The notes beneath the pieces are model-generated. The model made no database searches. It had not been told where the DNA came from and saw only the letters and a program-made list of their open reading frames with translations. From assembly GCF_964355755.1 (NCBI RefSeq), contig NC_092673.1, forward strand, positions 32,361,648 to 32,425,647: 64,000 nt of DNA, written 5' to 3'. This document shows positions 1,095-62,876 of this stretch, in pieces. This DNA is from Antedon mediterranea. Lineage: Eukaryota > Animalia > Echinodermata. The translations under genes were made by a program, and so were the position numbers. The first letter of the stretch is position 1. Every line of letters begins with the position of its first letter.

Positions 1095-3437
<2,343 letters not shown>

Positions 3438-4568: not shown

Positions 4569-7489
4569 TCACTTTGCGCCTTGATGTGTGTTTACCGCAT
4601 TTTTGGTTCGCTCGTACCATGGTCCAATTTTAGTTTCACGAACCATGTCGTTAAAAGCATCGAGGCCTTCAATGGAACTCAACACACCATACACCGCCTA
4701 CAATAAAAAAAAAATTGGAAAAAGTGTTTTTAATTTAAAACAAAATGGTCTGATTCTAAAAGCGTAATTTATATTTCAATAACATTTTACCAAGTCAGCC
4801 ATGTTAGGCTCTGTTCCACCCTGGAAGGAATTTTTCCCGACGGATTTCATCCAGTCATTTGCCGCACCATACAAGGAGGATCGTACATCATCTGGTAAGT
4901 TGTATCTACAAGTTCAAATACAGTACTAAATTAGCTATGTATTTTGAAGTAGCAGTATTTTGTAAAGAAGAAAAATTTATTTTAAAACATGCATTCCCAT
5001 TTGACACACATGCACAAGTGCTTTGACCAATCACAAACACTGGTTCCAATTGTTATGTATTGTTTGAATGTTTGCATCATCTAATGTTGATATAAAGTGT
5101 GCGGTACACCACGTGTATTAGTTCTGTTCTGCTTTGATCGTCCTCATTCTCATTCCTGAAGACGATCAAACTCATATTGATCGAAACATCGAGAAACTCA
5201 ACATTTCTTTTTCATACACGTTGTGTACAGCAAACTTTATAGAACAATTGTTAGTTAGTTTCGAAGCCAAGCTTTGTACAAGATTGCAACCACAGTGTGT
5301 ATTGGATTATTATAGAACCAGGACCTCTGACAAAATAAAATTGCACTCACTTCTTTTTCAACTTTTTACTAACAAAATACATTCCAAGAGCTCCTATGTA
5401 TTGAATAACAAACTTCTCGTAACTTGTAAAGTGCGCCTTTTCCGCTATGTAACTGAACGCCTGTACGGATTCATTCCAGGTGCGATAGATATTTGGAGGA
5501 ATGTTGTGAACTAAAACATCGTCTACCCATATACGCCATTTTCTTTCAAGTCTAATATAAAGAAATTGTACAACATTATTGTTTAATTTGTAGAAATGTC
5601 ATGACAATGTATGATGAATGGCGTGTGTTGGGTAAGCAGGCATGCTGTCTTGTCGTATTCCATTTTTTAGGGTAAAGTGTGGTTGTCCAATTATTAATTA
5701 ATAGGCAGATCCCCCATCCCCAAGAAATCATACAGTATACATTTTGATTACATTAAAATATCTGTATAATATAATGTTTAATAAATTTAATTTCCATTTA
5801 TATATAGTGTATATATACAGTATTATATATATAAAAACAACAGGCAAAGAACATTAATTCTAAACCACATATAGTATATATACTGAAATTTAATTAATTA
5901 ATTTGAAACGATACAGATGAGGAAATATGTGAGAATGAGAAAAAGTCACCCCAACCGAGACTCGAACTCGGACAGTCTGCTGATTGATTGAAATATATAT
6001 TATACTGGGTAACCTCTTCAGTCAAAGACTGGTCTCCCAGAGGGCCCAGTTGGTGATCAGTGGCTATGATGTACTAATACACTAATACACTGCTTGATAT
6101 GCAGCTGTCCTAACCATTAGACCACTGGGGCTTTCATGGTATTGTTCAAACTCGATTGGATAGCGACTCTTTAACATTCTCGGCGTGGATAATATATATT
6201 ATATATTTTGTAGGTTTCTACTTATAAGCTATGCTATGCAGAGATTCCCCATTTCCATTCTTTTCTCTTTGTACTATGCTTATTTATGATGAATGGAAAT
6301 AAAAAAAAGTAATGAATAAATACTGCTATCAGAACTTTCATTACTTCATTTCATTTGTTTTTCCGGGTTTTCCCAGCATAATTTCATGACGATTACTGTA
6401 TTCCACAACTTTCCGGCTCATCCATCCCTTTGACTCGGTTTCAATTTTGGGGTAATACGTAACAATTTGACGAAGATCTTGATCCGTAAGCAGGAAGCTC
6501 TTCAAGGAGCTTATAATTACTGATGAATCATTCATTTGCTGAAAGTGAATTTAATCAAATTACTGTATTTAAAAAATTTATTTTATGGTAATAAAAAACA
6601 CCATGGACTAAAGAATAATAATATGCTTTACTCCATGAAAACACGCATTAGATCATCTATAATTACTTAACTAGGCCTATATCAAATAGTCGACAGCCAG
6701 TTTAGATTTTTTAATCAATTAAATTTTAATCTAACCCCTAACATCACTTAATAACAATTTATTTTATAAAAATGCGAATTTTATTGGCGGCCATAAATTA
6801 TTTATACTGTTGCATTTGCTGATTATATAAAATGTTATTAACAATAAACATTAATAAATACAATTTTAATTAGTTAATATTTGTTAATTTATTATTTAAA
6901 TATGAAATATAATTTAATTTAAAGGTTGAAAACTATATACCACTTGTTCATCTTCTTTGGCTCCTTCATACACAAGTATTGGAACTTTCCGATACACAGA
7001 AAACTTAAGTTCTTTTCTAAAAATAGGATCGACTTCAACTATGTTGTAGGATAAACCATGATAGTCCAGAAATGCTCGGACTTTACAGCAAAATGGACAA
7101 ACTTGATATTGGTACAATGTAAGCTTAAGACCTGTTGTATCAGTTTGTCTGGTGATATGTTCAATTTCACGCGCCTGTACGACACTAAGCCCTGAAGAAA
7201 AGAAACTTGCACTCGCGCCTAGGCCTAGGCCCCTTTCCGTAACAACCGACACGCGATTCCATAAGCTCCGGCCCCACGAAACTCCACCGATAGTGGCGGC
7301 TGTACCGAAGGTGAGTAGGCTAGCTCTAATAACATTAGATTTGTTGATGTTTAAATTATCATTGCTAAATCTATTAAATGATAACTGCCTGTTATTTCCA
7401 AGAAATATATTATGGTGATTTTTCTTTAAGATATAATTACGCCGAACAAGACTACGAAGAAAAACATTCTGACAACTGGAGGCTGCCAT
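4569..7489 (-). CDS. PTGES2: Prostaglandin E synthase 2 (mPGES-2; glutaredoxin/GST fold), 5 exons, 395 aa
   Basis: Exons 7489-6941 (LTLYQYQVCPFCCKVRAFLDYHGL...YRKVPIL, CxxC motif), 6538-6345 (QMNDSSVIISSL), 5551-5351 (ERKWRIWVDDVLVHNIPPNIYRT), 4905-4791 (DDVRSSLY...GGTEPNMADL), 4697-4569 (AVYGVLSSIEGLDAFNDM...IGPWYER, TGA). Phases are consistent and the total is 1188 nt. Confidence 0.96.
6005..6090 (-). mobile_element. SINE 3'-end fragment, same family as 50765-50925
   Basis: cttcagtcaaagactggtctcccagagggcccagtt..gatcagtggct.tgatgtactaatac is almost identical to 50776-50840. It interrupts a degenerate tRNA-like segment (gagactcgaactc ... taaccattagacca). Confidence 0.55.
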
Positions 7490-8162
7490 GTTTCCAGAAT
7501 CACGTGGTTGTTTTGTTGTTGTATAAAATTCATATTTATTCTTAAACTTAAAAGTGTATAATAATTTACTGTTGGATTATTTGTTAAAATTTAAAATTAC
7601 AGTGTTATCAAATAATTATTTTAATATATTTCTTTATTTTTTTATGTTTATACAATAAATAATATATATTATTTGATTTATTTTCACGACAAGACTGACC
7701 TCACGCAGTGTGTGGTAATCAATGTATGGTACTCTGGGCAAAGAACTTATATAACACAAGAATCTCCTGTTCGCGATTTTTTTTTCCGTACGAGAGTTCC
7801 TCCGTCGGTTCGTTTCGGACTCAATCGACTCTTCGGTAAGCCACCGATACTCACTGATGCGTGACAGCAACCACAAAACGTGAGCAGCTTCTTTAGGCCT
7901 TACGGTGAAGATGAAAACATTTTTTCTTGTTCCTCATTAAGCATAATAAGTGAACTCTCTTGATTCATATACATAAAAATAAATTAATCACGTATTAAAA
8001 AGTTCCACGAAAATTTTCCTGACATTTTAAAGAAATCTTGATTTTAAAAGTATAAAAGAATATATTTTCGCAGTTGCCATTTTGTATCACATGACATCAG
8101 TTAAACCAATCATACGCGACGTTTAGGCAGCAGACGTCAAAATCACACGATGTAAACACGAA

Positions 8163-10730: not shown

Positions 10731-11960
10731 CAATTACATTGAAACAAAACAAATATTTGATGTTTGTATTTTATTTAATAATTTAAATTTACTATTGCAT
10801 TGGTGTTTATTACTAGGAATATGTGTTCTATATTTTTCACAGTTAAATCATATCAGTCACTATGTACATCCTACGGTATAAACTTAGCATTATTGCTGCT
10901 GTATTTCTACTGCTATTAATAGCCTACCTGTCGGGAGAAACCATTATACGAACAGTTGAAGCCATTTGTAATTATAAATGTTTTAATGTCGGGGGATAAT
11001 TATTAACTCTAAATTTCAATTTTAGAGTTAATATAAATTTGTATTCACCAAATTTATTTAAAAAAATAAAGAATAAATCTATTTTGATAATAAATAACTT
11101 GCCTATATATTTCTTATAAACCGTGAAAATAATAGTACAGTCTAGTTATAGTGCGCCACCAGTTGTTTCAGCCTCGCTATTTCGTAAGAAATCGTTGGCA
11201 TATTTACCAACTTTAACGGTAATTTTCTACCAAACGCCAGGTATTTTTTTGTGGAACTTTTACTTTTTGTACTATTAGTATTTATTTAGAACAGAATATG
11301 TGGTAAAAAAGTATTATGCTTGATGAGGAACGGGATTGCTTTTCCAGGCATCATTTCAGCTTCGCCGTAAGGCCTACTTTGCACGAGTGACAAATTTATA
11401 CATACTATACTAGAGGCCTAATACTATACTCACTGTAAATATAATAGTAAATATTAATAGTAGTACTGAACGTCATTGTAATAATAATAATAGTCCTAGA
11501 ATTTTAATAATATAATACTGTATAGGCAGCCACAAACCAATGTATGTACACCATCAGATTCACAAACAGTAACACACACACACAGCAGCAGCACTTTGTT
11601 GGTCGTCACACTAGCAACTTAGGCCAGCTAGCCTAGCCCTACGTACGTGTGCTTCAATGTAGTACATTCCATCTACAGTACTATTTTTTATTTTAATAAA
11701 ATGAAGTAGTAGGTTAGAAATTATATGTACAGAAGTAACACTAACAGATGTTTTTATCAAAAAAATTACAATTTTCTTCAGGTTTTTAAGTGTAACATTT
11801 GAAAAATTGTATACATTTAGGCCTAGTATTAGTAACATGTATTCTTGTAAGTTGTAATGTATAGAAACACATGCTTGCTTATAAAGCGTTTAATATCGTG
11901 TTAATTTAATAATTGATGATAGTATCACATATAATTATAAGCTTCCTGGAAAATGTGTTA

Positions 11961-14900
11961 TTAGGTGATCATTTAGAATAAAATGATCACCTATTGTTAT
12001 TGTATGAAATCTTTATTGGTTATCCGCAACGAAGTTGCAGGATAACCTCTTGTGATTGTACGAAATCATCATCATTGGTTATCCGCAACGAAGTTGCAGG
12101 ATAACCTCTTGTGATTGTACGAAATCATCATCATTGGTTATCCGCAACGAAGTTGCAGGATAACCTCTTGTGATTGTACGAAATCATCATCATCATCATC
12201 ATCATCAACTTTTTATTCTTCTTCTTTCTTTCTGTATGATTTTTGTGTAACGCTTTTCTCTGAAACTTGCAAACATAACATTTTGTTAACTATGTTAACA
12301 TTTTGACATTTATGTAACGTCGTCAAGCGAAGCTTTTCATGATGTTTACAATTGCGCAACGTGACGTACGCGCGATTTAACGATTTTCTCGTATTTAACA
12401 TATGTCAAAAACCAAATAACATTTCAACTTGAAACTTTGCAAAAGTTTAATTTATATCATGCGCTAACTTTCTGTTGAAAAAAAATTGCGTGTTTTACAC
12501 AAAGTTACGCGCGCACGCGCATTTAAAATTTCAAAATGCGCGAAATTAATTTATAATCAACTTTCTACGCGTTTCATGTCGTTTTAAGCATGTCAAAAAT
12601 TCCCACGCGTGCGCACATTTTTACGTGTGCGGTGCGCACGTAGCATTGAAAACGTATTTTTTTCGCGTGATTTATGTTTTTCCAGCCTTTTCATGTAATT
12701 TTACCAAATTTTTAACAATTTCGACTTAAAGATACGTCATACGAGCACGTCGAATTGGACAATTTGCGCGCGTTTTTTATGAAAAGGTTAAAAAATTCGT
12801 TTAAAATATGCCTTTTTTTAAACAGTCGTAATTTCTAAACTAGACGGTCAACTTTTTGTGGATGGCATATTCTGGAAGTAGATGAGTTGTAGATATCGGA
12901 TCAGGTATTAATATGGCTAACCGGACATTGTGACGTCATCGTATGGCCACGCGAATATAAAATTTAGGATTTTTGTATCTTTCGTCATAGGTCATCACAT
13001 TGAATAGAGCGCATCTCCACTTATCCGTTTTCCATTTTCACCCCGATTTTGATATTGTCTAGGTCAATCAACTATCTTTCGCATGAGTGAAAAATATTTT
13101 AATTTTTATGACGTCATCATGCCTAAAAATTGAAATCACGTGTGGCATCAATTTCATCTTTACAGTAAATTTTAATCTGTTATAGCTCGTAAGAATAAAA
13201 TGTGATAATCACGATTAAAACTTTTTCTGGAAGCTATTGGATTGTAGATACGAAATTATGTCAAAATGTTGCCAATCGGATGTTGTGACGTCATCATATG
13301 GCCAGTTAAATAAAAAAGGTCGTATTTTCATCTTTTGCGTCATAATTCATTACATTTAAAAGAGCGCGCATCAATATTTCACGTATTCAAATTTCTTCTA
13401 CACGCTAATACGTTGTTGCTGAGATAATTTCCTTTCGGAATTGCTACCTTCGCGTTTCATTTTAAAACCGTCAACATGTTAAAAATTGCAATAAATAGCG
13501 GGTCCCGTAATTTCACCTATTCTACACTGTATGTGATATGGATACAGATTATACTGTGTATACTATATATGAATTTAAACAATAAAATTCAGCAATAACA
13601 ACATATCATATTCTTCAGTTCAGGTCATAATGCCAACGTGAACACTTCCTTTTGTCCTCAACCATCCCCTTAATGTTAATGTTGCACCACTTGCGCGGCG
13701 GATAACCAAACTCGTCAAAGTGACGAGTTACATGTCTAGTCTTTTTCTTAATCTTCTTTCTTTCTGTATGATTTTTGTGTAACGCTTTTCTCTAAAACTT
13801 GCAAACATAACATTTTGTTAACTATGTTAACATTTTGACATTTATGTAACGTCGTCAAGCGAAGCTTTTCATGATGTTTACAATCGCGCAACGTGACGTA
13901 CGCGCGATTTAACGATTTTCTCGTATTTAACATATGTCGAAAACCAAATAACATTTTAAAGTGAAACTTTGCAAAAGTTTAATTTATATCATGCGCTAAC
14001 CTTCTGTTGAAAAAAAATTGCGTGTTTTACACAAAGTTACGCGCGCACGCGCATTTAAAATTTCAAAATGCGCAAAATTAATTTCTAATCAACTTTCTAC
14101 GCGTTTCATGTCGGTTTAAGCATGTCAAAAATTCCCACGCATGCGCACAATTTTACGTGTGCGGAGCGCACGTAGCATTGAAAACGTATTTTTTTCGCGT
14201 GATTTATGTTTTTCCAGCCTTTTCTAGTAATTTTACCAAATTTTAAACAATTTTGACTTAAAGATACGTCATAAGAGCACGTCGAATTGGACAATTTGCG
14301 CGCGTTTTTTATGAAAACGTTAAAAAATTCGTTTAAAATATGCCTTTTTTAAAACAGTCGTAATTTCTAAACTAAACGGTCAACTTTTTGTGGATGGCAT
14401 TTTCTGGAAGTAAATGAGTTGTAGATATTGGATCAGGTATTAATATGGCTAACCGGACATTGTGATGTCATCGTATGGCCACGCAAATATAAAATTTAGG
14501 ATTTTGTATCTTTCGTCATAGCTCATCACATTGAATAGAGCGCATCTCCACTTATCCGTTTTCCATTTTCACCCTGATTTTGATATTGTCTAGGTCAATC
14601 AACTATCTTTCGCATGAGTTAAAAATATTTTAATTTTTTTTACGTCATCGTGCTTAAAAATTTAAATCACGTGTGGCATTAATTTCATCTTTACAGTAAA
14701 TTTTAATCTGTTATAGCTCGTAAGAATAAAATGTGATAATCACGATTAAAACTTTTTCTGGAAGCTATTGGACTGTAGATACGAAATTATGTAAAAATGT
14801 TGCCAATCGGATGTTGTGACGTCATCATATGGCCAGTTAAATAAAAAAGGTCGTATTTTCATCTTTTGCGTCATAATTCATTACATTTAAACGAGCGCGC

Positions 14901-17900
14901 ATCAATATTTCACGTATTCAAATTTCTTCTACATGCTAATACGTTTTTGCTGAGATAATTTCCTTTCGGAATTGCTACCTTCGCGTTTCATTTTAAAACC
15001 GTCAACATGTTAAAAATTGCAATAAATAGCGGGTCCCGTAATTTCACCTATTCTACACTGTATGTGATATGGATACAGATTATACTGTGTATACTACATA
15101 ATATATGAATTTAAACAATAAATTTCAGCAATAACAACATATCATATTCTTCAGTTCAGGTCATAATGCCAACGTGAACACTTCCTTTTGTCCTCAACCT
15201 ATCCCCTTAATGTTAATGTTGCACCACTTGCGCGGCGGATAACCAAACTCGTCAAAGTGACGAGTTACATGTCTAGTCTTTTTCTTAATCTTCTTTCTTT
15301 CTGTATGATTTTTGTGTAACGCTTTTCTCTAAAACTTGCAAACATAACATTTTGTTAACTATGTTAACATTTTGACATTTATGTAACGTCGTCAAGCGAA
15401 GCTTTTCATGATGTTTACAATCGCGCAACGTGACGTACGCGCGATTTAACGATTTTCTCGTATTTAACATATGTCGAAAACCAAATAACATTTTAAAGTG
15501 AAACTTTGCAAAAGTTTAATTTATATCATGCGCTAACCTTCTGTTGAAAAAAAATTGCGTGTTTTACACAAAGTTACGCGCGCACGCGCATTTAAAATTT
15601 CAAAATGCGCAAAATTAATTTCTAATCAACTTTCTACGCGTTTCATGTCGGTTTAAGCATGTCAAAAATTCCCACGCATGCGCACATTTTTACGTGTGCG
15701 GAGCGCACGTAGCATTGAAAACGTATTTTTTTCGCGTGATTTATGTTTTTCCAGCCTTTTCTAGTAATTTTACCAAATTTTAAACAATTTTGACTTAAAG
15801 ATACGTCATACGAGCACGTCGAATTGGACAATTTGCGCGCGTTTTTTATGAAAACGTTAAAAAATTCGTTTAAAATATGCCTTTTTTAAAACAGTCGTAA
15901 TTTCTAAACTAAACGGTCAACTTTTTGTGGATGGCATTTTCTGGAAGTAGATGAGTTGTAGATATTGGATCAGGTATTAATATGGCTAACCGGACATTGT
16001 GATGTCATCGTATGGCCACGCAAATATAAAATTTAGGATTTTGTATCTTTCGTCACAGCTCATCACATTGAATAGAGCGCATCTCCACTTATCCGTTTTC
16101 CATTTTCACCCCGATTTTGATATTGTCTAGGTCAATCAACTATCTTTCGCATGAGTTAAAAATATTTTAATTTTTTTTACGTCATCGTGCTTAAAAATTT
16201 AAATCACGTGTGGCATTAATTTCATCTTTACAGTAAATTTTAATCTGTTATAGCTCGTAAGAATAAAATGTGATAATCACGATTAAAACTTTTTCTGGAA
16301 GCTATTGGACTGTAGATACGAAATTATGTAAAAATGTTGCCAATCGGATGTTGTGACGTCATCATATGGCCAGTTAAATAAAAAAGGTCGTATTTTCATC
16401 TTTTGCGTCATAATTCATTACATTTAAACGAGCGCGCATCAATATTTCACGTATTCAAATTTCTTCTACATGCTAATACGTTGTTGCTGAGATAATTTCC
16501 TTTCGGAATTGCTACCTTCGCGTTTCATTTTAAAACCGTCAACATGTTAAAAATTGCAATAAATAGCGGGTCCCGTAATTTCACCTATTCTACACTGTAT
16601 GTGATATGGATACAGATTATACTGTGTATACTACAGTATATATGAATTTAAACAATAAATTTCAGCAATAACAACAGATCATATTCTTCAGTTCAGGTCA
16701 TAATGCCAACGTGAACACTTCCTTTTGTCCTCAACCTATCCCCTTAATGTTAATGTTGCACCACTTGCGCGGCGGATAACCAAACTCGTCAAAGTGACGA
16801 GTTACATGTCTAGTTGGTTATCCGCAACGAAGTTGCAGGATAACCTCTTGTGATTGTACGAAATCAACCTGTATGATTTTTGTGTAACGCTTTTCTCTAA
16901 AACTCGCAAACATAACATTTCGGTAACTATCTTAACATATTGAAATTTACGTAACGTCGTCAAGCGAAGCTTTTCATGACGTTTACAATTGCGCAACGTG
17001 ACTTACGCGCGATTTAACGATTTTGTCGTATTTAACATAGCTCGACAACCAAATAACATTTCAACTTGAAACTTTGCAAAAGTTTAATTTATATCATGCG
17101 CTAACTTTCTGTTGAAAAAAAATTGCGTGTTTTACACAAAGTTACGCGCGCACGCGCATTTAAAATTTCAAAATGCGCAAAATTAATTTATAATCAACTT
17201 TCTACGCGTTTCATGTCGTTTTAAGCATGTCAAAAATTCCCACGCGTGCGCACATTTTTACGTGTGCGGTGCGCACGTAGTATTGAAAACGTACTTTTTT
17301 CGCGTGATTTATATTTTTCCAGCCTTTTCTAGTAATTTTACTAAATTTTAAACAATTTCGACTTAAAGATACGTCATACGAGCACGTCGAATTGGACAAT
17401 TTGCGCGCGTTTTTTATGAAAAGGTTAAAAAATTCGTTCAAAATATGCCTTTTTTTAAACAGTCGTAATTTCTAAACTAGACGGTCAACTTTTTGTGGAT
17501 GGCATATTCTGGAAGTAGATGAGTTGTAGATATCGGATCAGGTATTAATATGGCTAACCGGACATTGTGACGTCATCGTATGGCCACGCGAATATAAAAT
17601 TTAGGATTTTTGTATCTTTCGTCATAGCTCATCACATTGAATAGAACGCATCTCCACTTATCCGTTTTCCATTTTCACCCCGATTTTGATTTTGTCTAGG
17701 TCAATCAAGTATCTTTCGCATGAGTTAAAAATATTTTAATTTTTTTGACGTCATCATGCCTAAAAATTTTAATCACGTGTGGCATCAATTTCATCTTTAC
17801 AGTAAATTTTAATCTGTTATAGCTCGTAAGAATAAAACTTGATAATCACGATTAAAACTTTTTCTGGAAGCTATTGGATTGTAGATACGAAATTATGTAA

Positions 17901-20900
17901 AAATGTTGCCAATCGGATGTTGTGACGTCATCATATGGCCAGTTAAATAAAAAAGGTCGTATTTTCATCTTTTGCGTCATAATTCATTACATTTAAAAGA
18001 GCGCGCATCAATATTTCACGTATTCAAATTTCTTCTACACGCTAATACGTTGTTGCTGAGATAATTTCCTTTCGGAATTGCTAACTTCGCGTTTCATTTT
18101 AAAACCGTCAACATGTTAAAAATTGTAATAAATAGCGGGTCCCGTAATTTCACCTATTCTACACTGTATGTGATATGGATACAGATTATACTGTGTATAC
18201 TATATATGAATTTAAATAATAAAATTCAGCAATAACAACAGATCATATTCTTCAGTTCAGTTCATAATGCCAACGTGAACACTTCCTTTTGTCCTCAACC
18301 TATCCCCTTAATGTTAATGTTGCACCACTTGCGCGGCGGATAACCAAACTCGTCAAAGTGACGAGTTACATGTCTAGTTGGTTATCCGCAACGAAGTTGC
18401 AGGATAACCTCTTGTGATTGTACGAAATCATCAACATCTTTTTCTTAATCTTCTTTCTTTCTGTATGATTTTTGTGTAACGCTTTTCTCTAAAACTTGCA
18501 AACATAACATTTTGTTAACTATGTTAACATTTTGACATTTATGTAACGTCGTCAAGCGAAGCTTTTCATGATGTTTACAATTGCGCAACGTGACGTACGC
18601 GCGATTTAACGATTTTCTCGTATTTAACATATGTCGAAAACCAAATAACATTTTAAAGTGAAACTTTGCAAAAGTTTAATTTATATCATGCGCTAACTTT
18701 CTGTTGAAAAAAAATTGCGTGTTTTACACAAAGTTACGCGCGCACGCGCATTTAAAATTTCAAAATGCGCAAAATTAATTTATAATCAACTTTCTACGCG
18801 TTTCATGTCGTTTTAAGCATGTCAAAAATTCCCACGTGTGCGCACATTTTTACGTGTGCGGTGCGCACGTAGCATTGAAAACGTATTTTTTTCGCGTGAT
18901 TTATGTTTTTCCAGCCTTTTCTAGTAATTTTACCAAATTTTAAACAATTTCGACTTAAAGATACGTCATACGAGCACGTCGAATTGGACAATTTGCGCGC
19001 GTTTTTTATGAAAAGGTTAAAAAATTCGTTTAAAATATGCCTTTTTTTAAACAGTTGTAATTTCTAAACTAGACGGTCAACTTTTTGTGGATGACATATT
19101 CTGGAAGTAGATGAGTTGTAGGTATCGGATCAGGTATTAATATGGCTAACCGGACATTGTGACGTCATCGTATGGCCACGCGAATATAAAATTTAGGATT
19201 TTTGTATCTTTCGTCATAGCTCATCACATTGAATAGAGCGCATCTCCACTTATTCGTTTTCCATTTTCACCCCGATTTTGATATTGTCTAGGTCAATCAA
19301 CTATCTTTCGCATGAGTTAAAAATATTTTAATTTTTTTGACGTCATCATGCCTAAATATTTAAATCACGTGTGGCATCAATTTCATCTTTACAGTAAATT
19401 TTAATCTGTTATAGCTCGTAAGAATAAAATGTGATAATCACGATTAAAACTTTTTCTGGAAGCTATTGGATTGTAGATACGAAATTATGTAAAAATGTTG
19501 CCCATCGGATGTTGTGACGTCATCATATGGCCAGTTAAATAAAAAAGGTCGTATTTTCATCTTTTGCGTCATAATTCATTACATTTAAAAAAGCGCGCAT
19601 CAATATTTCACGTATTCAAATTTCTTCTACACGCTAATACGTTGTTGCTGAGATAATTTCCTTTCGGAATTGCTACCTTCGCGTTTCATTTTAAAACCGT
19701 CAACATGTTAAAAATTGCAATAAAAAGCGGGTCCCGTAATTTCACCTATTCTACACTGTATGTCACTGAGCTGTATGTGATATGGATACAGATTATACTG
19801 TGTATACTATATATGAATTTAAATAATAAAATTCAGCAATAACAACATATCATATTCTTCAGTTCAGGTCATAATGCCAACGTGAACACTTCCTTTTGTC
19901 CTCAACCTATCTCCTTAATGTTAATGTTGCACCACTTGCGCGGCGGATAACCAAACTCGTCAAAGTGACGAGTTACATGTCTAGTTCTTATTCTTATTAT
20001 TTATTTCTCTCTGTACAGATTTTGTGTAACAAATATCTCAAAAAGTTTAATGTTAATGATTACCAAAATTTTACAATGTCTTTCAAATACTGTAACTTAG
20101 TCCTAATAAGCTTTTCAGCGTGATCACTCATCCATGACGTCGCGTATACGCCATTTTGTGAAATCACATTGTCAATCATATCTCCATAATTCATTATCAC
20201 ATATTAATGAAATTCACTACACGTAAACTTCAGGTCAAAGGTAAAAGTATTAGCAAATAAAAAATTGCGTGTTTCAAGGTCATGCGCGTGAAATCGCGCA
20301 TTAAAATTTTAAAAAGCTCAAATTTAAGTTTTGATCAATTTAGAGCATGAAATAGGCCATTTGCGTGTTTCAAAAAATTACTGCGCAAAAACACATTTTT
20401 GCGCACGCGATTTTTAAAAAGGGTAAAAAATAAAATTTGATGTATATATCATATTCTACTCACAATCCTTAGTACATTCTCCGACTTTGAGTCCATTCCG
20501 ACTTAAAATAACGCTATACGAGCACGTTAAAAATGACAAAATGCGCACATTAATTGTACAAAAGTGCTAAAAATGGTAAAAAATAAGGCCTTTTTAAAAT
20601 GAACATAACTCTTCAGAATGGCAGGTGACCCCCAATTTTTTAAACTTATTATGGAAGCCAATAAGTTGTAGATATAAATATATATACATATTAGACGTAC
20701 AAAATGGTATGACGTCATGAAATGGCCACTTGAATTTAAAAATTAGTAATTTTTATCTTTTTGTGTTGGTTATCACATTCAATAGAGGGCATCTCCGTTA
20801 TTTGAGCCCGATTTTTGCAGATATTTTAGTATGTGCTTGCTCAATTAATTATCTTTCTCGTGAGTTGTCAACATTTTTATTGTGATGACGTCATCACGCG

Positions 20901-21508
20901 TAAAAACTTGAATAACCTAGGTCGTGTAATTTCAGCTACACCATACATTTGAATATATTATAGCTCCTCAGAATTAAAGGTGACCTTGAAGATTATAATT
21001 TATTATGAAAGCTGATGAAATGTAGATATGAATTCATATCAAAATTAAGCCTATCGGATGTTGTGATGTTATCATATGGCCAGTTGAAGTTAAAAAGTAG
21101 TTTTTAAATTTCTTTAGTCGAAGTTATACAAATTTCAAAGAGCGCGCATTGCGCTTCTACGTGTCAAATTCTCTTCCAATCCTTATATTTATTTGCTCAA
21201 TTCATTATCTTTCGAAATTGTCATCTTCGAGTTTATTTTGATAATTCCATCATACCAAAAAATTTGAACTTGATGTGTGTCCCATAATTTCACCTATGCT
21301 ACACTGTATATAGATATACAGTATATACTGTACATTGTATATGGCATATAATAGGCATAACTCAGCACTATAAGCGTATAATAGGATGGCATACATCAAC
21401 ATTTTCCTATCGTATGTTAACGTACGTACATGTTTAAAAAAAATTAATTTCATTAAAATGATAAAAATGATCACCTATAATTCGTCAAAGTGACGAATTA
21501 AATTCTAG
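11961..21508 (+). mobile_element. Non-autonomous Helitron/Helentron-like element, family B copy 1, split by the family A block (head 11961-12015, body 19985-21508)
   Basis: 5' hairpin taggtgatcattt-agaata-aaatgatcaccta. 3' subTIR aaatgatcaccta, hairpin aattcgtca-aag-tgacgaatt, end CTAG at 21508. Rejoining 12015 to 19985 gives gaaatcttta|ttcttattcttatt. Confidence 0.82.
12016..19984 (+). mobile_element. Five non-autonomous Helitron/Helentron-like (HINE-type) elements, family A, ~1.55-1.6 kb each
   Basis: Heads ttggttatccgcaacgaagttgcaggataacc start at 12016, 12075, 12134, 16814 and 18378. Tails gcggataaccaa-actcgtcaaagtgacgagtt-acatgtCTAG end at 13739, 15276, 16813, 18377 and 19984. Features: 12-bp subTIR, 3' hairpin, CTAG end, microsatellite behind the head, no TSD. 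Confidence 0.88.
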
Positions 21509-21539
21509 TGAGAAATTGTTTTTGTAAAAAAAAAATGTT

Positions 21540-23064
21540 TCTTTGCAATTTCTTTCTGTACAGATTTTGTGTAACAAATATCTCAAAAAGTTTAATGGCA
21601 ACGACTACCAAAATTTCAGAATGTCTTTCAAATACTTCAACTTAGTCCTAATAAGCTTTTCAGCGTGATCACTTATCCGTGACGTCAATTATACGCCATT
21701 TTGTGAAATCACATTATCAATCATATCTCCTTAATTAATTATCACATATTAATGAAATTCACTACACGTAAACTTCAGGTAAAGGGTAAAAATATTAGCA
21801 AATAAAAACGCACGCGCACGTAGGGTAATGCGCGTGAAAACGCGTGTTAAAAATTTAAAAAGCTCAAAATTACGTTTTGATCAATTTAGAGCATGAATTA
21901 GGCCATTTGCGTGTTTTACAAAATTACTGCGCAAAAACATGTTTTTGCGCGTGCGTACATAGAAAGCGTAAAAAATAACAACTTTTTGTACAAATTGCAT
22001 TCTACTCATCTTCCTTGGTACATCCACCAAATTTGAGTCCATTTCGACTTAAAATAGTGCTATACGAGCCTGTTAAAAATGACAAAATGCGCACATTAAT
22101 TGTACAAAAGTGCTAAAAATGGTAAAAAGTAGGGCCTTTTTAAAATAAATATAACTCTTCAGAATGAAAGGTGACCCCCAATTTTTTAAACTTATTATGG
22201 AAGCCAATGAGTTGTATAAATAAATGTATATACACATTAGACGTACAAAATGGTATGACGTCATCATTTGGCCACATGAATTTTGAAAATAGGGGTTTTT
22301 CCCCTTTTGTCAAAGACCACCATATTCAACAGAGCGCAACTCGCTTATCTGTTATCGATTTTCTTTTAATTTTTAACACATTCTACCTCAACCAATTATG
22401 TTACTTATAAGTTGCCAATATTTTCTTTTGGATAACGTTATCATGTCTTAAAATTTAAATAACGGTGGTTACGTAATTTTACCTACAACGTATATTTGAA
22501 TACCTTACAGCTCTTCTGAATTAAAGTTGACCTCGATGTTTATAATTTAGTATGATAGCTGGTGAAATGTAGATATGAATTCATACAAAAATTAAGCCTA
22601 TCAGATGTTGTGACGTTATCATATGGCCAGTTGAAGTTAAAAAGTAGTTTTTTCATCTCTTTCGTAAAAGTTATACAATTTTTAAAGAGCGCGCACAGCC
22701 CTTCTACGTGCCAAATTTTCTTCCAATTGTTATATTTTATTGCTAAATTCATTATTTTTCAATATTGTTGTCCACAAGTTTTTTTTGATAATGTCATCAG
22801 TGCCAAAAACTTAGAACATGATGTGTGTCCGTAATTTCACCTATGCTACACTGTATATAGATATACACAGTACAGTATATACTGTACATATTGTATATGG
22901 CATATAATAGGCACAACTCAGCACTATAAGCGTATAATAGGATGGCATACATCAACATTTTCCGATTGTATGTTAACATACGTGCATGTTTCAAAAATAT
23001 GAATGTCACTAAAATGATAAAAATGATCACCTATAATTCGTCAAAGTGACGAATTAAATTCTAG
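21540..23064 (+). mobile_element. Helitron/Helentron-like family B copy 2 (no 5' head found)
   Basis: Colinear with 20010-21508. Same 3' end aaatgatcacctataattcgtcaaagtgacgaattaaattCTAG at 23064. Confidence 0.82.
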
Positions 23065-23826
23065 TTATTAAATGTATTTGTACTATTGCAGTCGTGTCAG
23101 TACCGTAATTGAATGTTTTTTACTTTGCATGTATTTTTTATGATTTTCCAAATTACATATAATAAACAATAATATTAGTTGTAGGCCTATAACTTAATTA
23201 AAACTCCAAAGTTGCCTATTAATATTATTAAAAGTCTGAAATCTTTTTTTCAAGATTGGGGATAATTAATACGTACACCTTTAACGTAAAATTTCCATTA
23301 CCTTACAATATAAATATTAATTTAATAATATTATTTTAAAAGGTATAAAAAACATACACTGTGCATAGGAATTCCTACTGTACATAATCATTTTAAATTC
23401 AAAAGTAATACCTTGCATAGGCTTACACAAGCTAGCCTAGCCATGGGCTAGCTACAATACCATAAACGATACTAGAAAAAGAGCCTCTCGTTCGTGACAA
23501 AGGGTCGTTCAACTTCAAAAAATAATATCTGATACGACCTACTATTGGGTCGTAGACCTAAATATCTTCAATATGCTATTGGGTTCTTAATGTAATTACT
23601 AAGTAGGCCTAGTATTTATTAATTAATGTCATCAAATCAAAACTCGTATTAGTGTAGATTTATTTTACTATTGTGAGAGCCTGTGTGAAAGTAAGCTCGC
23701 GGTTTGTAAATGTCAATTGTATTATGTTGTCACGCATCAGTGAGCTGACTTTACCGAATACCGAAGAGAGTCGATTGAGTCCGAAACGAACCGATGGAGG
23801 AACTCTCGTACGGAAAAAAAAATCGC

Positions 23827-24929: not shown

Positions 24930-27900
24930 ATGATGGGCAAGCAGCACAGTAATTTGATTACAATGCTGCAATTTCTTCTGCTAGCTGGGTTTGTAAATGC
25001 CGACTTTATTTCTACTACTGGTGAGTAATCAACAATGTAAACAATATCACAGCAACAACAAATTTCTTTTTACAAATATATTTTTACAATATATTATATT
25101 TTTTCATCCAATGAAAAAAATAAAATAAAAATAACATCATGTACAGTAACAAAATTGAATATTCTATTATTAATTTAATTTACAGATATATAATGAAAAT
25201 CAGTTTCAATTTGTTACTTTAGCTACAGTACTGTACATGTTAGAATTAATCAACAGACAAAAATAATATTATTTTTACCATTAATTATTCTTTTTTAAAA
25301 TGATTTATTATATCAGTTTTTACTTTGTCATAGATTGTGGTGGAAAATTGACCAGCTCGAAAGGTGTCTTTATATCACCAAATTATGCTGCGGGTGGGCC
25401 TTACGATTCCAACACTGAATGTACGTGGTTTGCAACCATACCAGACGGAATGTTTCTAGTCTTTGATGAGTTTTATCTAGATGGTTCTGGTGATAAAATC
25501 GTTGTTGAGGATGAGGATGGCATCATTGGTACATACTTGGGAATCCAACGTAAGTTGTTCAAAATTATTGGTAAGATCACTGATGCAGAGGGTCTATTTG
25601 GGATTGGATTTTTTGTTTTGATCCAAGCATAGCATAATGCAATAAGCTTGAACCCCACACTCATGGTAATGATGTCCAGATGTATTTATTGTATAGCTTG
25701 ATTTTTACATGTATCCTACAGTATTGAACCTAGAATTTGTAATATCTTTTTTCTTATACAGACAATTTTATCATCCAAACATTGTCTGGCAAACTTAATA
25801 TTACATTTACAAGTGGCAACGACTCAAGGTCTGGTCTTAGCAGAAAATTCAAAGGTGCTGTCCAGGAAGGTGAGGGCTACAAATATTTTAATAGTAATAT
25901 TTTATTATATTACATAGCCTATGTAAATACGCTAACGTGATTGGTTGAAACTGCATCACATGACTACCGCTGCGAGGATCGTAAATCGTATATACCCTCG
26001 AGAACGATGATATTGACTGTGTAATTTTCGCGTAATTATCGTGTCACCTGTCATTAAACATAGATTCTCAAGTACGATGATATTGACTGTTCGTGTGCCA
26101 ACACTCGCGTTGCCGATAAATAAACAAAAGTCATCAACTCGATCTTGAACTCGGGTGGAATTGTCACTCCATCGCAAGACAACGCTTCAACCGCTGCGCC
26201 ACGGAAGTTGCTTGAAGAAATTAATCATCTAAACTATTTAAACTATGCATACATAGCGCCCTCATTTGTTATAAGTCCACCCTAAATGTGATGTAACACC
26301 GTTTGTGATTGGTCAATACTCACGGTAGTAACGTAGTAACTAGTACGCGCTGAACATCCGGTGATTCGGCTCCTCGAAGATCGAGAAGAAGACGAATTGT
26401 TTATTCGGCCTACCTGATTATATTATTATTTTTAATAGGCTTATTGATGGAAATTCTTCTGTTAATTTAAACGACCTAGGCCTAAGTGAATATTTTATTG
26501 CCAAGGAATCATTAATTAGTAATTATCTGTATATTATTCTTCGCAAGGTAAGGTGTCTAGGCAGGCTTGTTTAAATACAATACAAATACTATAGGAGGCC
26601 TAGCCTAGCTTCACCCAACCCAGCAGACTTGTTCTTGGCTATATAATATAACAGATATTGCCTTTTATATCGGTTAATTATAAGATTTGACATCCCCGAG
26701 GGAATGATATTAAGTTCGAGGGAATATATATTTCATGAAGCGCCAGCTGAGGGAAATATATATTCCCCGAGAACTTAATATCATTGCCTCGGGGATGTCA
26801 AATCTTATATTTAACCTCTAAGCAGTCAATATCTGTATAATATTATTATTGTACAATTAATCATAAAATCTAGAAATATAGGAGTTTATAAAATTACTAT
26901 TATTAATGGATAGGACAAGATTTTTAACGTTATTGTCTGTTTTTAAGAGGAACCTAAAATTAAATGCAGAAGACAATGGTGTTGTAAAACTATGCTAAAA
27001 AAAAAATACCAATTTTTGAGAGAGGGTTAATTTTGTCTGAGACTAGACGTAGAAATCGGATACTCGGATGGTATATTAGATTAGCCTGATATACAGTAAA
27101 AATGATGCAATCTATATGTGGTAGTTACTGTATTATTAAATTGAATAAGTATACAGTATATTATAAACTGGCCCTTTTGTGTCGATTTGACAAAAAATCG
27201 ACACTTAATTGAAATTTTATATTAGTAACTGTGCAGTTTTATCTTCATAGATTGTAACCTTCCACTTTCAACCCAATTCACTGTATAATGTAGGCCTATA
27301 TATCACCTTCAATTTTAATCTTGACAGAATGCAAGACTATCTTTTCTCTTGATACACCATTTGGATACATATCAACACCAATATTGAAAAATCAAAATGA
27401 AAGTCAGTCATTTGTTTGTACTTGGTTAGTATCAAGTCCACTTAAACTGGGCAGCATATTGTCATTTGACAATGCAAACTTCACAGATACAGCTGCTACA
27501 GTAATGGTATATGAAGGCATCAGTGAAGGAGGATTGTTACTAGCAAAATTCTCAGGTATTGCTAAATCTTCTTTAAACTCTGTCTACACTATCAAACTAG
27601 TTTGACAAAAAAAAGTGTGATGTGCCCAAATACAACAGTGATATGCCAACATATGGGAGTGATATGACATCATCGTGTCCATATATGGGCACATCACATT
27701 TTTTTTGTCACATAAAGTTTGATAGTGTAAACAAGGCTTTACATGATTAGTCACAACAAACTCTTCTGATTTCAACCATGGCCATCAAGGCAATCAACTT
27801 CAAACTAACATTGTTTAATTCAAATTACCATAATCATAATAATAATGTTGTTTTGTATAGCGCCATTCCAATGATCATTGCTCTAGGTGCTGTGGACTTA

Positions 27901-30900
27901 GATGTTACACTTTTCAACTTCATGTATCTCTCACATCACGTCTGCTACCAATTCAGCCTCATCTTCATTTCTACCAATGATAGCCACTAATTTCTGTAAA
28001 ACATTCCTCAATAAATAAAAAATGTTATAGTAAAATTATAGATACAAACACAATTATCTTTTTACTATTATTAACAAAAATCCATCAAATCAGCAGCTGG
28101 TATAAACTAATTAAAAAATTATATTATTAACTTATTATAGAAAATTGAGATTTACATTCTTTTTGCTCAATTAACAATTTGTCAAAACAATTTATAGTAA
28201 CTACTGTATGTCTATTTTTAGAATCCAATCCAGTGCATGCAGTTGTCACAAACACCAATCAGATGTTGATTGAGTTGACTTATCATGTTGCATCACCACC
28301 CGTAATAACGGGTCTGTTTAGAACCACTACAGGAGGTAAATTTATCATAATAAATAATATTCTACATAGTAGTTCTTTTTTTGCTTATATTGTTTGCCTG
28401 GAGTTGGAGAGACAAGTCCTTTGGTGATAGTTGTCTTTGACAGCTCTTGTCTCTCCTCAGTGCTCCCTTTGGCGATAGTTGTCTTTGACAGCTCTTGTCT
28501 CTCCTCAGTGCTCCCTTTGGCGATAGTTGTCATTGACAGCTCTTGTCTCTCCTCAGTGCTCCCTTTGGCGATAGTTGTCTTTGACAGCTCTTGTCTCTCC
28601 TCAGTGCTCCCTTTGGCGATAGTTGTCTTTGACAGCTCTTGTCTCTCCTCAGTGCTCCTTTTTTATGTTTCACTGAAAAGAATAAATAAAGAAATAAATA
28701 ACCAGTGTGTGACATTATGACCATTATGTAATGTTTCTATGTCTGTTGTGCATCTACTGGATGGAGGAGAGTAAACACAATAGGCATATTTACTTGCTTG
28801 TTTTGAGCAGACAGCAGATGTACCTTCTCACTGCTGTTTATTATCTAAGTAGTACCGTTACAGTAAATCGCTGCAAAATATGTGCAAGTGACCCACTGAA
28901 ATTTAGCTGTTATGTGTTGTGTGTAAAACAAACCACGGAAGAGGGAAATTTCACTCTTCCCAGAACAAACAAACCATTAGAATATTGTATGCCTTATACT
29001 GTTAATGTACTGTAAGAGTAGTCTATAAAGAGTATAAAATGCAATATCACAGAATGGGGAACAATAGAGTTACTTTTATAAACAATGCCGTTGTAAAAAA
29101 AAATACTGTATTCCATACAATTTAATAATAATTTAATATTAATATTTTGCAATAGAGTGCACTAAAGTTGTTAAGCTGACAACCAATGGAGAGCCAACTA
29201 CCATTTCATCGATTGGATATCCTAAACAGTATCTCAACGACCTCAACTGCTGGTGGCTTGTAGAAGCTGATGACAACTGCATGCTGGTTGTACAAGTGAA
29301 AGATGTCAACTTATCTGACGATGAGGACAGCTTAGTTTTTTATTCAGCTGCAAGTCGTAGCTCTGAGTATCTTGCAGAACTAAGTGGTCTCTCATTAGGT
29401 GAGTGGAACAGTTGTATAATGTAGTCCATGAATTAAGGGGACACTTTTTGGGACCTACCCTAATATGAGTATGCCCTAAATGGGGTTTGCCGTAGTGTTA
29501 CAATTAAGACTTACTGAACTGCTCTTCTTCCTTTCATGGGAAAGTTTTCCCTTAATAGAAATGTTCTTTGAATATATGTAGGATGTGTGGTTAAGGCCAA
29601 TTTACGATAACAATTGACATTAAATAGATAAATATGCATTTTCACATGTCCAATCAAATGACTGATTGATATGTCATGACAATATAACTATTTTATTGTT
29701 TTTATTAATCATAACGTCATTTTGATTGGGTTTTAAAACACATTATATATTTCATCAAAGACAGTATAAATGATTATCCTATAGTTCTAGAACGAAAAAT
29801 GTCCTAATTTCTTTTGTTTTATGTAAGAAAAATGCATGCTTATCTATTTATCATCGATCGTTTTCGTTCCAGTGTAAAAGGGCCTTTAAAATATAAACAG
29901 CCCTTTTGTTCCTTTTATGGTAAATTTTTCCCTTAATATGGATATCCAAAAGTAGGCCTTAAATCTACTGAAGCTCATTCATATGGAGTTTGATGTTAAA
30001 GCTGAGTTTTTAATATTCATTTTGTAAACTTTCAGTTTTGTTAAACTGTGTTTATCTTTCTAACAGAGCTCCCAGTGCTTGTAACCGATAGCAACATGAT
30101 GCTTGTCAGCTTTACCTCTAGTGACATGGGAATTACTGGAGGTTTTTCCTTTGACATATTTGCACAAGGTATGACTTGCATAAAAACCTCTAGCAGATTT
30201 ATTATAAATGAAAATTGCTATTGCAGGACATTTCACACCTGTTCTGGTACGGTTCCGGTCCAGCGCCGGCAAACATCGAACGCTAATGTTTCCTTTTAAC
30301 AACGCTCCATGTGCCAATCGATATGCATGTACAGTATCTGCGTCCTATTTGATTTGTCATTGATGGACCGGAACCGGAACTATTCTGATAATTCACTAGT
30401 GATGAGCGCAAATTTATGTACTGTACAAAATTAAAAGAAAAATTTTTAGTTTTAGTTTAACATTCATAAAGTACCACACATTACAATAATTTCCATTTAA
30501 TACAATTGTTTTAGATATTGGTGGTGTAATTAGACCAAGTGAATCAGAAGTCATGTAAGTATGAACAAACCAATTCTTTTAGCTTCTAAAACCTTAAAAA
30601 CTACAATTAATAGTAATAACAATCAGTGTAAAAACTCAATTTTCTTTACAAAGTTAACAAAAATTGCGAAACAATAAAAAACAAAAATAAACCAATATAC
30701 TTCATTTGTGTAATTTAGATTGTCATGATGTGCACTAATAAAAAAAATATTTTTATGCAGAGTTATGAATTATGAATTTCTCAACTTAATTTCTTTTCTT
30801 TCAATTGTCATCAGTATTTCTTCTTTCAGAATGCAACTTAAAGCTCTGTCTACACTATCAAACTAATGTGATATGCTCAAATATGGTAGTGATATGAAAT

Positions 30901-61700: not shown

Positions 61701-62876
61701 AATTTATTTATTTATTTCAATAACCATATACAGTACGACTACTAGTCGTGTATAGTTTTTAACCTTTTATTACTTGTTTTTGTACTTTTTTTACGTGAAT
61801 GTATTGTGTATGTACCATGTTTCTATGTGGTTTAATTTTTACCATTTTTTAACCATCAATTTTAATGCTTTTAATATAAATATATTGTAATTCAGCTTCA
61901 GCTGCGAAAACGATAAGAAATAAAATAAACAAACGTGTAAACTTGTAGGCAGTTTATGGATGAATGCAATAGTTTATGCTTATAAATTTAGTGTACCATG
62001 GCCTACTTTAAACTAAACATAATAAGTCAACATTGCAACTCTTACATTTTAGAGTGCCAAATCACATGTTCTAATGGATGTCCACATGAAGGAGATTCCG
62101 GGTTTAAAGGCTTTTCAAATATAGTTCAAATGTTAATAACCATACAATAGGCCATTATTGGACATAATGTGTCATTGGACTCTATAGAAACATGTATGTT
62201 CTGAATAATTTGACACTAAAAATAATTTCATATGTACAATATTTTCAAAGTTATGCGATTTTATGTAGTTCAAAGGTCAATAATGTTAGAATCGGCCATT
62301 TTTTGCAAAAACATGCCATTAGACTAAATATAAATATGTAGTTTTTGAACAGTTTGAGCCATATTGTGTGTCTCTCAGATTAGTGGTTGCTAAGATATGA
62401 TAAATCAAGGTCAAAGGTCAATAATGTTAGAATCCGCCATTTTTTGCAAAAACATGCCATTAGACTGGATATAAATGTGTAGTTTCTGAACAATTTAAGC
62501 CCTAATTTGTATATCTCCGATTAGTGGTTGCTGAGATATGAGAATTCAAGGTCAAAGGTCAATAATGTTAGAAATAGCACTTCCATTCATTTTTGGACAA
62601 ACTTTTTCAATAAAGTGAATATAAAAACATATATTCTAACGATTTTGACACCATAATTAAGTATCTGTGACTAGCGGTTTTCAAGATACAGAGTACGTTA
62701 TCAAAAATGGCGGCCATTTTTAATTATGCAAATTAGGCTACTTCCCGTTGTCGAAAAAATGTCCTAACGTTGATAAATATGTTCAGTAGGGTCTAAAGAA
62801 CACATTTCATCAAAAAAACCTTTTCTTGCAATTTGTGTGAGAAAAGGGTCATTTTTTAGCTAAATCCCATGGACTA
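58768..62876. mobile_element. Non-autonomous Academ-like element with ~820-bp TIRs
   Basis: Ends tagtccatgggatttag / ctaaatcccatggacta with exact 3-bp TSD ATA (58765-58767, 62877-62879). Arms 58768-~59588 and ~62053-62876 are nearly perfect inverted copies with internal ttgaccttt repeats. It is inserted in a gggacac-family MITE (58622...62927). Confidence 0.88.
59705..61196 (+). mobile_element. 5'-truncated non-LTR retrotransposon (CR1/L2 group, Crack/Daphne-like) with intact RT and C-terminus
   Basis: Open frame to 60990 with YGFR, FLDLSKAFDTIDH, GVPQGSILGPLLFLIFIND, YADDT, KFLG and LQKKALR. 3' UTR has a stem-loop-like segment (61062-61100), AATAAA at 61158 and an A-tract at 61179-61196. 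No endonuclease domain and no clear TSD. Confidence 0.93.

What the first reader, a model, noticed from the sequence alone, without database searches (positions are those of the whole stretch)
11961..19984. Russian-doll nesting: rolling-circle elements that appear to target one fixed A|T site inside their own family
Seen: the block is not a plain head-to-tail satellite. Three family A heads are stacked 59 bp apart (12016, 12075, 12134). Three bodies follow (ending 13739, 15276, 16813), of which the second and third have no head. Two complete units come next. Heads (5) equal tails (5). Removing 12134-13739 rejoins gaaatcatcatca|tctttttcttaatc, essentially the sequence of the uninterrupted unit at 18378 (gaaatcatcaacatctttttcttaatc). 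Removing 12075-15276 does the same again. Removing 12016-19984 restores the family B element at the homologous position (gaaatcttta|ttcttattc). All three nested junctions are A|T with no TSD, 55-59 nt from the host's 5' end. Established: Helitrons insert at A|T without a TSD, and HINE/DINE-1 elements form tandem arrays. Inference: a self-targeting insertion preference, guided by the 5' hairpin or the adjacent microsatellite, builds multi-kb arrays at a safe-haven site. I do not recall this being described, but I have not searched the literature.
Basis: partly seen in the sequence, partly recalled or inferred. Interest (0 to 1): 0.85.

Follow-up and report, generated by a model that had tools for sequence, protein, structure and literature searches.

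The report
Helitron-like elements nested behind own start
In an animal genome, non-coding rolling-circle-type jumping elements form an 11-kb stack whose joints rebuild cleanly into copies sitting inside one another just behind their own start; other samples show such joints at several neighbouring positions, so this is likely a habitual self-insertion zone of a kind already reported in fungi and maize, not one fixed site.

Summary
The layout is exactly as described: three identical 59-bp heads, one full and two headless bodies, two full units, all inside a split family B element, with A|T joints and no duplication. The units are HINE/Helitron2-like (subterminal inverted repeat, two hairpins) but end in CTAG. 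Public read contigs show the family at high copy, with head-to-head and tail-to-headless-body joints of several kinds in 3 of 5 samples laid, all at about +56 to +76 and none strand-changing. Self-insertion near the 5' end therefore likely recurs, but in a 20-nt window, not at one fixed site. That window is the start of the element's own longest pyrimidine tract, which suggests a built-in landing pad. Against the neat picture: the two headless bodies are 99.4% identical, so the third layer may be a duplication; family B has one head and two tails; this locus's own +59 joints were not listed in the reads. Stacked 5' termini from self-insertion are published for Fusarium FoHeli1 and maize (PMC5148889, PMC13342296, PMC3288121). 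Verdict: a real, well-preserved new example of a known process. Safe haven untested.

The parts
11961..12015 (+). Family B head: 5' hairpin holding the subterminal inverted repeat; cut at +55 (A|T)
   Evidence: fold and alignment; 13-nt inverted match to both B tails
12016..12074 (+). Family A head 1 (59 bp); pairs with body 15277-16813 in the nested reading
12075..12133 (+). Family A head 2 (59 bp, identical); pairs with body 13740-15276
12134..13739 (+). Complete family A unit (innermost), with a longer ATC run and a different pyrimidine tract
13740..15276 (+). Headless A body 2, starting at +60 of the unit
15277..16813 (+). Headless A body 3, 99.4% identical to body 2
16814..18377 (+). Complete A unit 4, head-to-tail; lacks the pyrimidine tract behind the head
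18378..19984 (+). Complete uninterrupted A unit 5 (reference unit); longest stop-free frame 86 codons
18380..18409 (+). 5' hairpin of A (predicted, head folds at -14.0 kcal/mol as DNA); its first arm is the subterminal inverted repeat
18433..18453 (+). Insertion window (+56 to +76): end of the ATC microsatellite and start of the unit's longest pyrimidine tract (26 nt from +60)
19943..19984 (+). A tail: 12-nt inverted copy of the 5' end (19943-19954), 9-bp-stem hairpin (19954-19974), CTAG end
19985..21508 (+). Family B body 1, continuation of the head at 11961; about 65% identical to A
21509..23064 (+). Family B body 2, headless, with no matching head in the window; its joint to the B tail recurs in read contigs

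Best explanation
These are non-coding HINE/Helitron2-like elements whose array likely grew by repeated same-direction insertion into a roughly 20-nt zone just behind the 5' hairpin of an earlier copy, where the element's own pyrimidine-rich tract begins. Shown: the end structures, the clean A|T joints, the rebuildable layers, and several different joint types in other samples. Inferred: a RepHel transposase encoded elsewhere prefers a W|T step followed by a T/C-rich strand, and because each copy carries such a tract at +60 it supplies its own landing pad. Because no target duplication is made, an A|T step is re-formed in front of each new head, so later copies can also stack head-to-tail (units 4 and 5). 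Also inferred: nested copies are then copied as composites (several heads, or several tails after read-through), which explains deep joints and the orphan B body. Likely order: B (already two-tailed), then A5, A4 and the outer A at B +55 in an order that cannot be fixed, then the inner layers at +59.
For: Base-exact rebuilds., all 7 of 7 joint rows shown: 5 join a tail to the body at +71/+72 with 0-4 letters between, 1 joins +56 back to a head, 1 is a depth-2 internal deletion, and none changes strand. 12 of 14 rows with letters between add head joints at +68 and about +73 to +76. One search shows a tail, a 9-nt piece of the tract and a second head (insertions at about +56 and +65 of one host). 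The head and tail joints of run X1 together rebuild the tract of the innermost unit (12206) if that head starts with three extra T, and variable terminal Ts are reported for HINEs (PMC4067079). Only 12 of 45-46 testable A|T or T|T steps lie at +50 to +80. The +59 site ranks first of 166 A|T sites of the unit for pyrimidines in the next 20 nt (18 of 20); 57 of 11190 (0.5%) sites outside the array reach that. Body 2 follows body 3 rather than body 1 at 41 of 45 informative columns, up to column 1452 of 1528, so a simple unequal crossover would have to fall in the last 5%.
Against: Bodies 2 and 3 share 28 private columns and differ by 0.6%, so the third layer may be a whole-unit duplication. B has one head and two tails. 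The +59 joints of this locus were not among the rows listed for any run, and run X5 listed no such joints. 20 contigs of X9 have unrelated AT-rich letters before the head, so dispersed insertion also occurs. The outer B flank is not pyrimidine-rich, and the B +55 site scores 16 of 20, below two neighbours. The tract mutates fast, so different joint strings need not all be separate events. could not see self-insertions beyond +183, and one search showed only 15 of 189 and 12 of 146 joint rows.
Confidence: 0.6

Rival explanations
1. One nested insertion at this locus (two heads, two bodies), then a separate duplication of the 59-bp head and a separate whole-unit duplication of the headless body, for example by rolling-circle copying from the tail|T joint. 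The 3 = 3 match is then luck.
For: Bodies 2 and 3 are 99.4% identical with the same joint. The heads are identical and so uninformative. The orphan B body shows that head and tail counts can come apart.
Against: It needs two further events, each cutting at the exact unit border. Ordinary unequal crossover is confined to 76 of 1528 columns. Recurrent joints elsewhere make a second insertion at the same place plausible.
Confidence: 0.25
2. Site choice is positional: the transposase docks on the 5' hairpin or subterminal repeat of a resident copy and integrates about 25-45 nt downstream of it, whatever the sequence.
For: A and B are hit at the same distance although their heads differ. Fusarium duplicated 5' ends are also short, 31-85 nt (PMC5148889 section 10). 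All listed joints keep the orientation.
Against: The window coincides with the most pyrimidine-rich A|T context of the unit. T-rich targeting is the known habit of HINE/DINE-1 (PMC4067079, PMC2374699). Two loose tail flanks seen are also T/C-rich (X3 and X5).
Confidence: 0.3
3. There is no special preference: a few chance nestings near the 5' end made composites that were then amplified as subfamilies, and microsatellite slippage diversified their joints.
For: A few joint types are very deep (5804, 4725 and 2292 in X9; 2730 for the B joint in X10), as amplified composites would be. Composite transposition is shown for FoHeli (PMC5148889).
Against: Joints before the tract (+56), inside it (+65, about +70) and in family B (+55) cannot come from one event by slippage. 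No joint was listed at the other 33-34 testable steps.
Confidence: 0.2
4. The order is an assembly artefact of a high-copy repeat.
For: No read spans the locus, and its own +59 joints were not listed.
Against: The five bodies are distinct sequences with unbroken private variants. Joints of the same kinds, and the B tail-to-body-2 joint, occur in independent contigs.
Confidence: 0.05

Closest known systems
FoHeli1 (Helitron2) with multiple 5' termini, Fusarium oxysporum (PMC5148889; PMC13342296)
   Same: Short 5' ends (31, 65, 73 or 85 nt) repeated, two to five deep, attributed to self-insertion; composites transpose; inverted repeats and hairpins at both ends.
   Different: There the reported forms have several 5' ends and one 3' end. 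Here the matching headless bodies are still in place, so the predicted nested intermediate can be rebuilt base by base. Animal host, CTAG end, insertion across families (A into B).
HINE / DINE-1 non-autonomous Helentrons (PMC4067079; PMC2374699)
   Same: 12-13-nt subterminal inverted repeat, 5' inverted repeat, microsatellite behind it, 3' stem-loop after the repeat, no coding frame, no target duplication, T-rich targets, variable terminal Ts.
   Different: HINEs insert at T|T and end in Ts; these end in CTAG and mostly sit at A|T. That mixed anatomy resembles lepidopteran Hel-2 (PMC4344730) and the termini of proto-Helentron.
Maize Helitrons with multiple termini from nested copies (PMC3288121)
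   Same: Preference to insert near or inside other Helitrons; nested intermediates give elements with several 3' ends and remnants with several 5' ends.
   Different: Canonical Helitron1; internal 3' ends mostly lose CTAG, whereas all seven tails here keep it; no narrow window was given in the parts I read.
Tandem TE dimers by double insertion (McGurk and Barbash, PMC5932611)
   Same: Repeated use of one preferred site seeds arrays that can expand later.
   Different: Their mechanism relies on the target duplication; here the A|T step is re-formed by the element's own first T, and the site is carried inside the element.

Membership tests
HINE / Helitron2 (HLE2) non-autonomous | Short (sub)terminal inverted repeat, 11-18 nt, at the 5' end and some tens of nt from the 3' end | tested here: met
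   A: 12 nt, 18378-18389 against 19943-19954; B: 13 nt
HINE / Helitron2 (HLE2) non-autonomous | Stem-loop after the 3' repeat and hairpin at the 5' end | tested here: met
   DNA folds; stems of 9 and 10 bp
HINE / Helitron2 (HLE2) non-autonomous | No target-site duplication | tested here: met
   in-silico empty sites; no true paralogous or allelic empty site was available
HINE / Helitron2 (HLE2) non-autonomous | Insertion at T|T with T-only termini | tested here: not met
   ends in CTAG; 4 of 4 rebuilt sites in the window are A|T; some read joints read T|T or have extra Ts
HINE / Helitron2 (HLE2) non-autonomous | Autonomous partner with HLE2-clade RepHel sharing the termini | not testable with these tools
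   no genome held; no long frame in the units; no RepHel-sized frame among the 28 frames of 100 codons or more in the window
Canonical Helitron (HLE1) | 3' hairpin then CTRR, insertion at A|T | tested here: met
   7 of 7 tails end hairpin-CTAG followed by T
Canonical Helitron (HLE1) | 5'-TC start and no inverted repeats | tested here: not met
   starts TT and has inverted repeats
DINE-1 (Drosophila) | GTCY microsatellite and conserved 90-bp core | tested here: inconclusive
   A carries an ATC run instead; a related element at 32461 has the GTCY run; the core was not compared
Head-to-tail satellite / rolling-circle concatemer | All units joined tail-to-head with one repeated joint | tested here: not met
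   2 tail-head, 2 head-head and 2 tail-headless A joints

The most novel reading that the evidence does not exclude
This family carries its own preferred integration site behind its 5' hairpin and uses it for a large share of its insertions, across related families. In two low-coverage samples the nested joints are as deep as or deeper than the head-to-tail joints. Self-homing would then be a main mode of spread of these animal rolling-circle elements, would build multi-kb arrays without a concatemer, and would give the first natural handle on how a Helitron2 transposase picks its target.
Probability: 0.3. Interest if true: 0.65.

Novelty: new member of a known kind. Interest (0 to 1): 0.4.

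Why it matters
How Helitron2-type transposases choose targets is poorly known. Stacked 5' ends were explained by self-insertion in Fusarium, but mostly from elements that had already moved on. This locus keeps both halves, and the read joints narrow the zone to about 20 nt, which makes two mechanisms (sequence landing pad or hairpin docking) testable in one genome. It also shows that arrays of rolling-circle elements need not be concatemers. The process itself is known, so the value is that of a clean case.

Tried and rejected
No genome is held for the window, so the genome-wide flank table could not be made. The tail pattern in viral contigs (1 hit) and metagenome contigs (4 hits) gave only chance matches without similarity to the elements. 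Rfam found nothing in 11900-23100. No earlier scan finding matched the unit by sequence or the first word set. A head for B body 2 was sought across the window and not found. Simple unequal crossover as the source of body 2 is disfavoured. Contig depth was not used as copy number: there was no single-copy calibration and the tool warns against it. The absence of the +59 joints in X9 is no proof that the allele is missing. Run X2 held one near-complete A unit and no joints. One paper search returned nothing.
Full report
Setting. The window is AT-rich animal-type DNA with scattered exons: a glutaredoxin/GST_N-domain exon at 6914-7576 on the minus strand, CUB-domain exons from 25285, and a reverse transcriptase fragment at 59653. 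The array lies between them, from 11961 to 23064. No whole genome is held.

Observation. The three stacked 59-mers are identical. Taking out 12134-13739 leaves a 5' end that matches the uninterrupted unit at 18378 at 109 of 110 bases. Taking out 12075-15276 gives the same joint, and taking out 12016-19984 rebuilds a B 5' end that aligns with A. Taking out 11961-23064 also leaves an A|T step. Two additions matter. First, a second B body without a head follows (21509-23064, 85.5% to the first), and no head for it exists in the window, so head and tail counts match only for A. Second, bodies 2 and 3 differ at 9 of 1512 sites and share 28 private columns, while the other nine pairs differ by 1.7-3.9%.

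Anatomy. Each unit has a 5' hairpin whose first arm recurs inverted near the 3' end (12 nt in A, 13 nt in B), then a 9-10-bp hairpin and a CTAG end. The longest stop-free frames are 74-91 codons, and Rfam has no match. Behind the A head lie an ATC microsatellite and the unit's longest pyrimidine tract, 26 nt from +60. Of 166 A|T steps in the unit, +59 ranks first for pyrimidines in the next 20 nt (18 of 20). Outside the array, 57 of 11190 steps reach that value. In rebuilt B the +55 site scores 16 of 20, just below neighbours at +49 and +61.

Other samples. Twelve public runs hold part of the region, all as short contigs; six were laid. On 18378-21520, 28256 contigs of run X9 were laid, so the families are highly repeated. 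On 18290-18560 all 7 joint rows were shown. Five join a tail to the body at +71/+72 with 0-4 letters between (X9 depths 5857, 2341, 711, 98 and 3.8; X1 4.6; X3 7.6). One joins +56 back to a head (X9 4725). One is a depth-2 internal deletion. None changes strand. The rows with letters between (12 of 14 shown) add head joints at +68 (622) and at about +73 to +76 (X9 13; X1 5.6). (15 of 189 and 12 of 146 rows shown) has a tail, a 9-nt piece of the tract and another head (530), which reads as two insertions at about +56 and +65 in one host; it also has the B tail-to-body-2 joint (X10, 2730). The two joints of X1 fit together into the tract of the innermost unit (12206) if that head begins with three extra T. 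Only 12 of 45-46 testable A|T or T|T steps lie at +50 to +80. By my arithmetic, four or five independent events all falling there would have a chance of about 0.005 to 0.001, but independence is not shown. Nested joints appear in 3 of 5 samples laid (two studies); X5 and X2 list none. Against my reading: the +59 joints of this locus were not among the listed rows; 20 X9 contigs have unrelated AT-rich DNA before the head; sites beyond +183 were barely visible; and depth is not copy number.

Mechanism. Shown: structure, clean joints, recurrence of several joint types in a 20-nt window, and same orientation in all rows listed. Inferred: a RepHel transposase made elsewhere favours a W|T step followed by a T/C-rich strand, and every copy offers one just behind its head. 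With no target duplication, the first T of a new head re-forms the A|T step, which also explains head-to-tail units 4 and 5 without a concatemer. Nested copies are likely copied on as composites, which would give the deep joints and the two-tailed B. For the third layer, body 2 follows body 3 rather than body 1 at 41 of 45 informative columns up to column 1452 of 1528. That disfavours ordinary unequal crossover but does not separate a second insertion by a sister copy from whole-unit duplication. Docking on the 5' hairpin remains a live rival, because hairpin and tract are linked in every copy hit.

What is known. PMC5148889 (abstract, passages including the self-insertion discussion, and section 10 whole) reports Helitron2 copies repeating their first 31, 65, 73 or 85 nt, explains them by self-insertion followed by composite transposition, and mentions a three-copy case in Metarhizium. 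I did not open its Table S6 or Figure S11, which may hold closer cases. PMC13342296 (passages) finds two, three and five 5' termini. PMC3288121 (passages and section 12) derives multiple termini in maize from nested Helitrons and cites a preference to insert near or inside others. PMC4067079 and PMC2374699 (passages) define HINE/DINE-1 and their T-rich targets. PMC11417382 (passages) defines HLE1 and HLE2. PMC4344730 (passages) shows inverted repeats together with CTAG and A/T flanks in Hel-2. PMC5932611 (passages) shows tandems from double insertion. PMC13085455 (passages) proposes strand-specific insertion into telomeric repeats. PMC12001565 (passages) lists Helitron-derived arrays in Xenopus. 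Coates 2010 on (GAAA)n disruption was seen only as a title in reference lists. In nine searches, judged from listings and the ten papers opened, I met no description of a defined self-carried insertion window in an animal HINE; the library lacks most subscription journals. Unchecked notes of this scan describe end-biased Helitron2 nests in other genomes; I use them as leads only.

Verdict. A real nested stack of HINE/Helitron2-like elements with mixed HLE1/HLE2 ends, which cannot be filed under either group without the transposase. Recurrent 5'-proximal self-insertion is likely (about 0.6 for the full model). A single fixed site is not supported, and the process is already published. Interest 0.4.

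Noticed in passing
window 32461-33150: A third, shorter relative of A and B (62-74% in patches) inside the CUB-gene region, with a 5' hairpin, an inverted end repeat and a GTCY microsatellite block present twice in direct orientation (32479 and 33038), the DINE-1 hallmark.
   Followed up: partly
window 16814-16870: Unit 4 lacks the pyrimidine tract behind the head. Such copies are the natural control for the landing-pad idea; contigs with shortened head regions occur in X2 and X3.
   Followed up: no
window 21509-21556: The start of headless B body 2 is unlike the B1 start, and its joint to the B tail is deep in run X10 (2730), which suggests a two-tailed composite subfamily.
   Followed up: partly
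window 58768-59589 and 62053-62876: An inverted pair of about 830 bp (94%) with 141-bp subrepeats surrounds a 445-codon reverse transcriptase frame (RVT_1, E 1e-31).
   Followed up: no
window 2340-2466, 3221-3311, 27575-27741, 30839-30964, 45437-45577, 53721-53795: A dispersed short, partly palindromic repeat family with at least six pieces.
   Followed up: no
window 52594-53626, 46363-46659, 28418-28662, 47639-48384: Tandem arrays of 131, 82 and 48 bp, and a 750-bp T/C-rich array of 52-mers; no A or B end lies in the T/C-rich array.
   Followed up: no
window 37296-38489 (-): A 397-codon acidic frame with 135-bp internal repeats and no Pfam match.
   Followed up: no
window 6914-7576 (-) and 1095-1442 (+): An exon with a glutaredoxin/GST_N domain that resembles prostaglandin E synthase 2, and an exon resembling the DEAD-box helicase UAP56/DDX39; both names are recalled, not from a call.
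   Followed up: no
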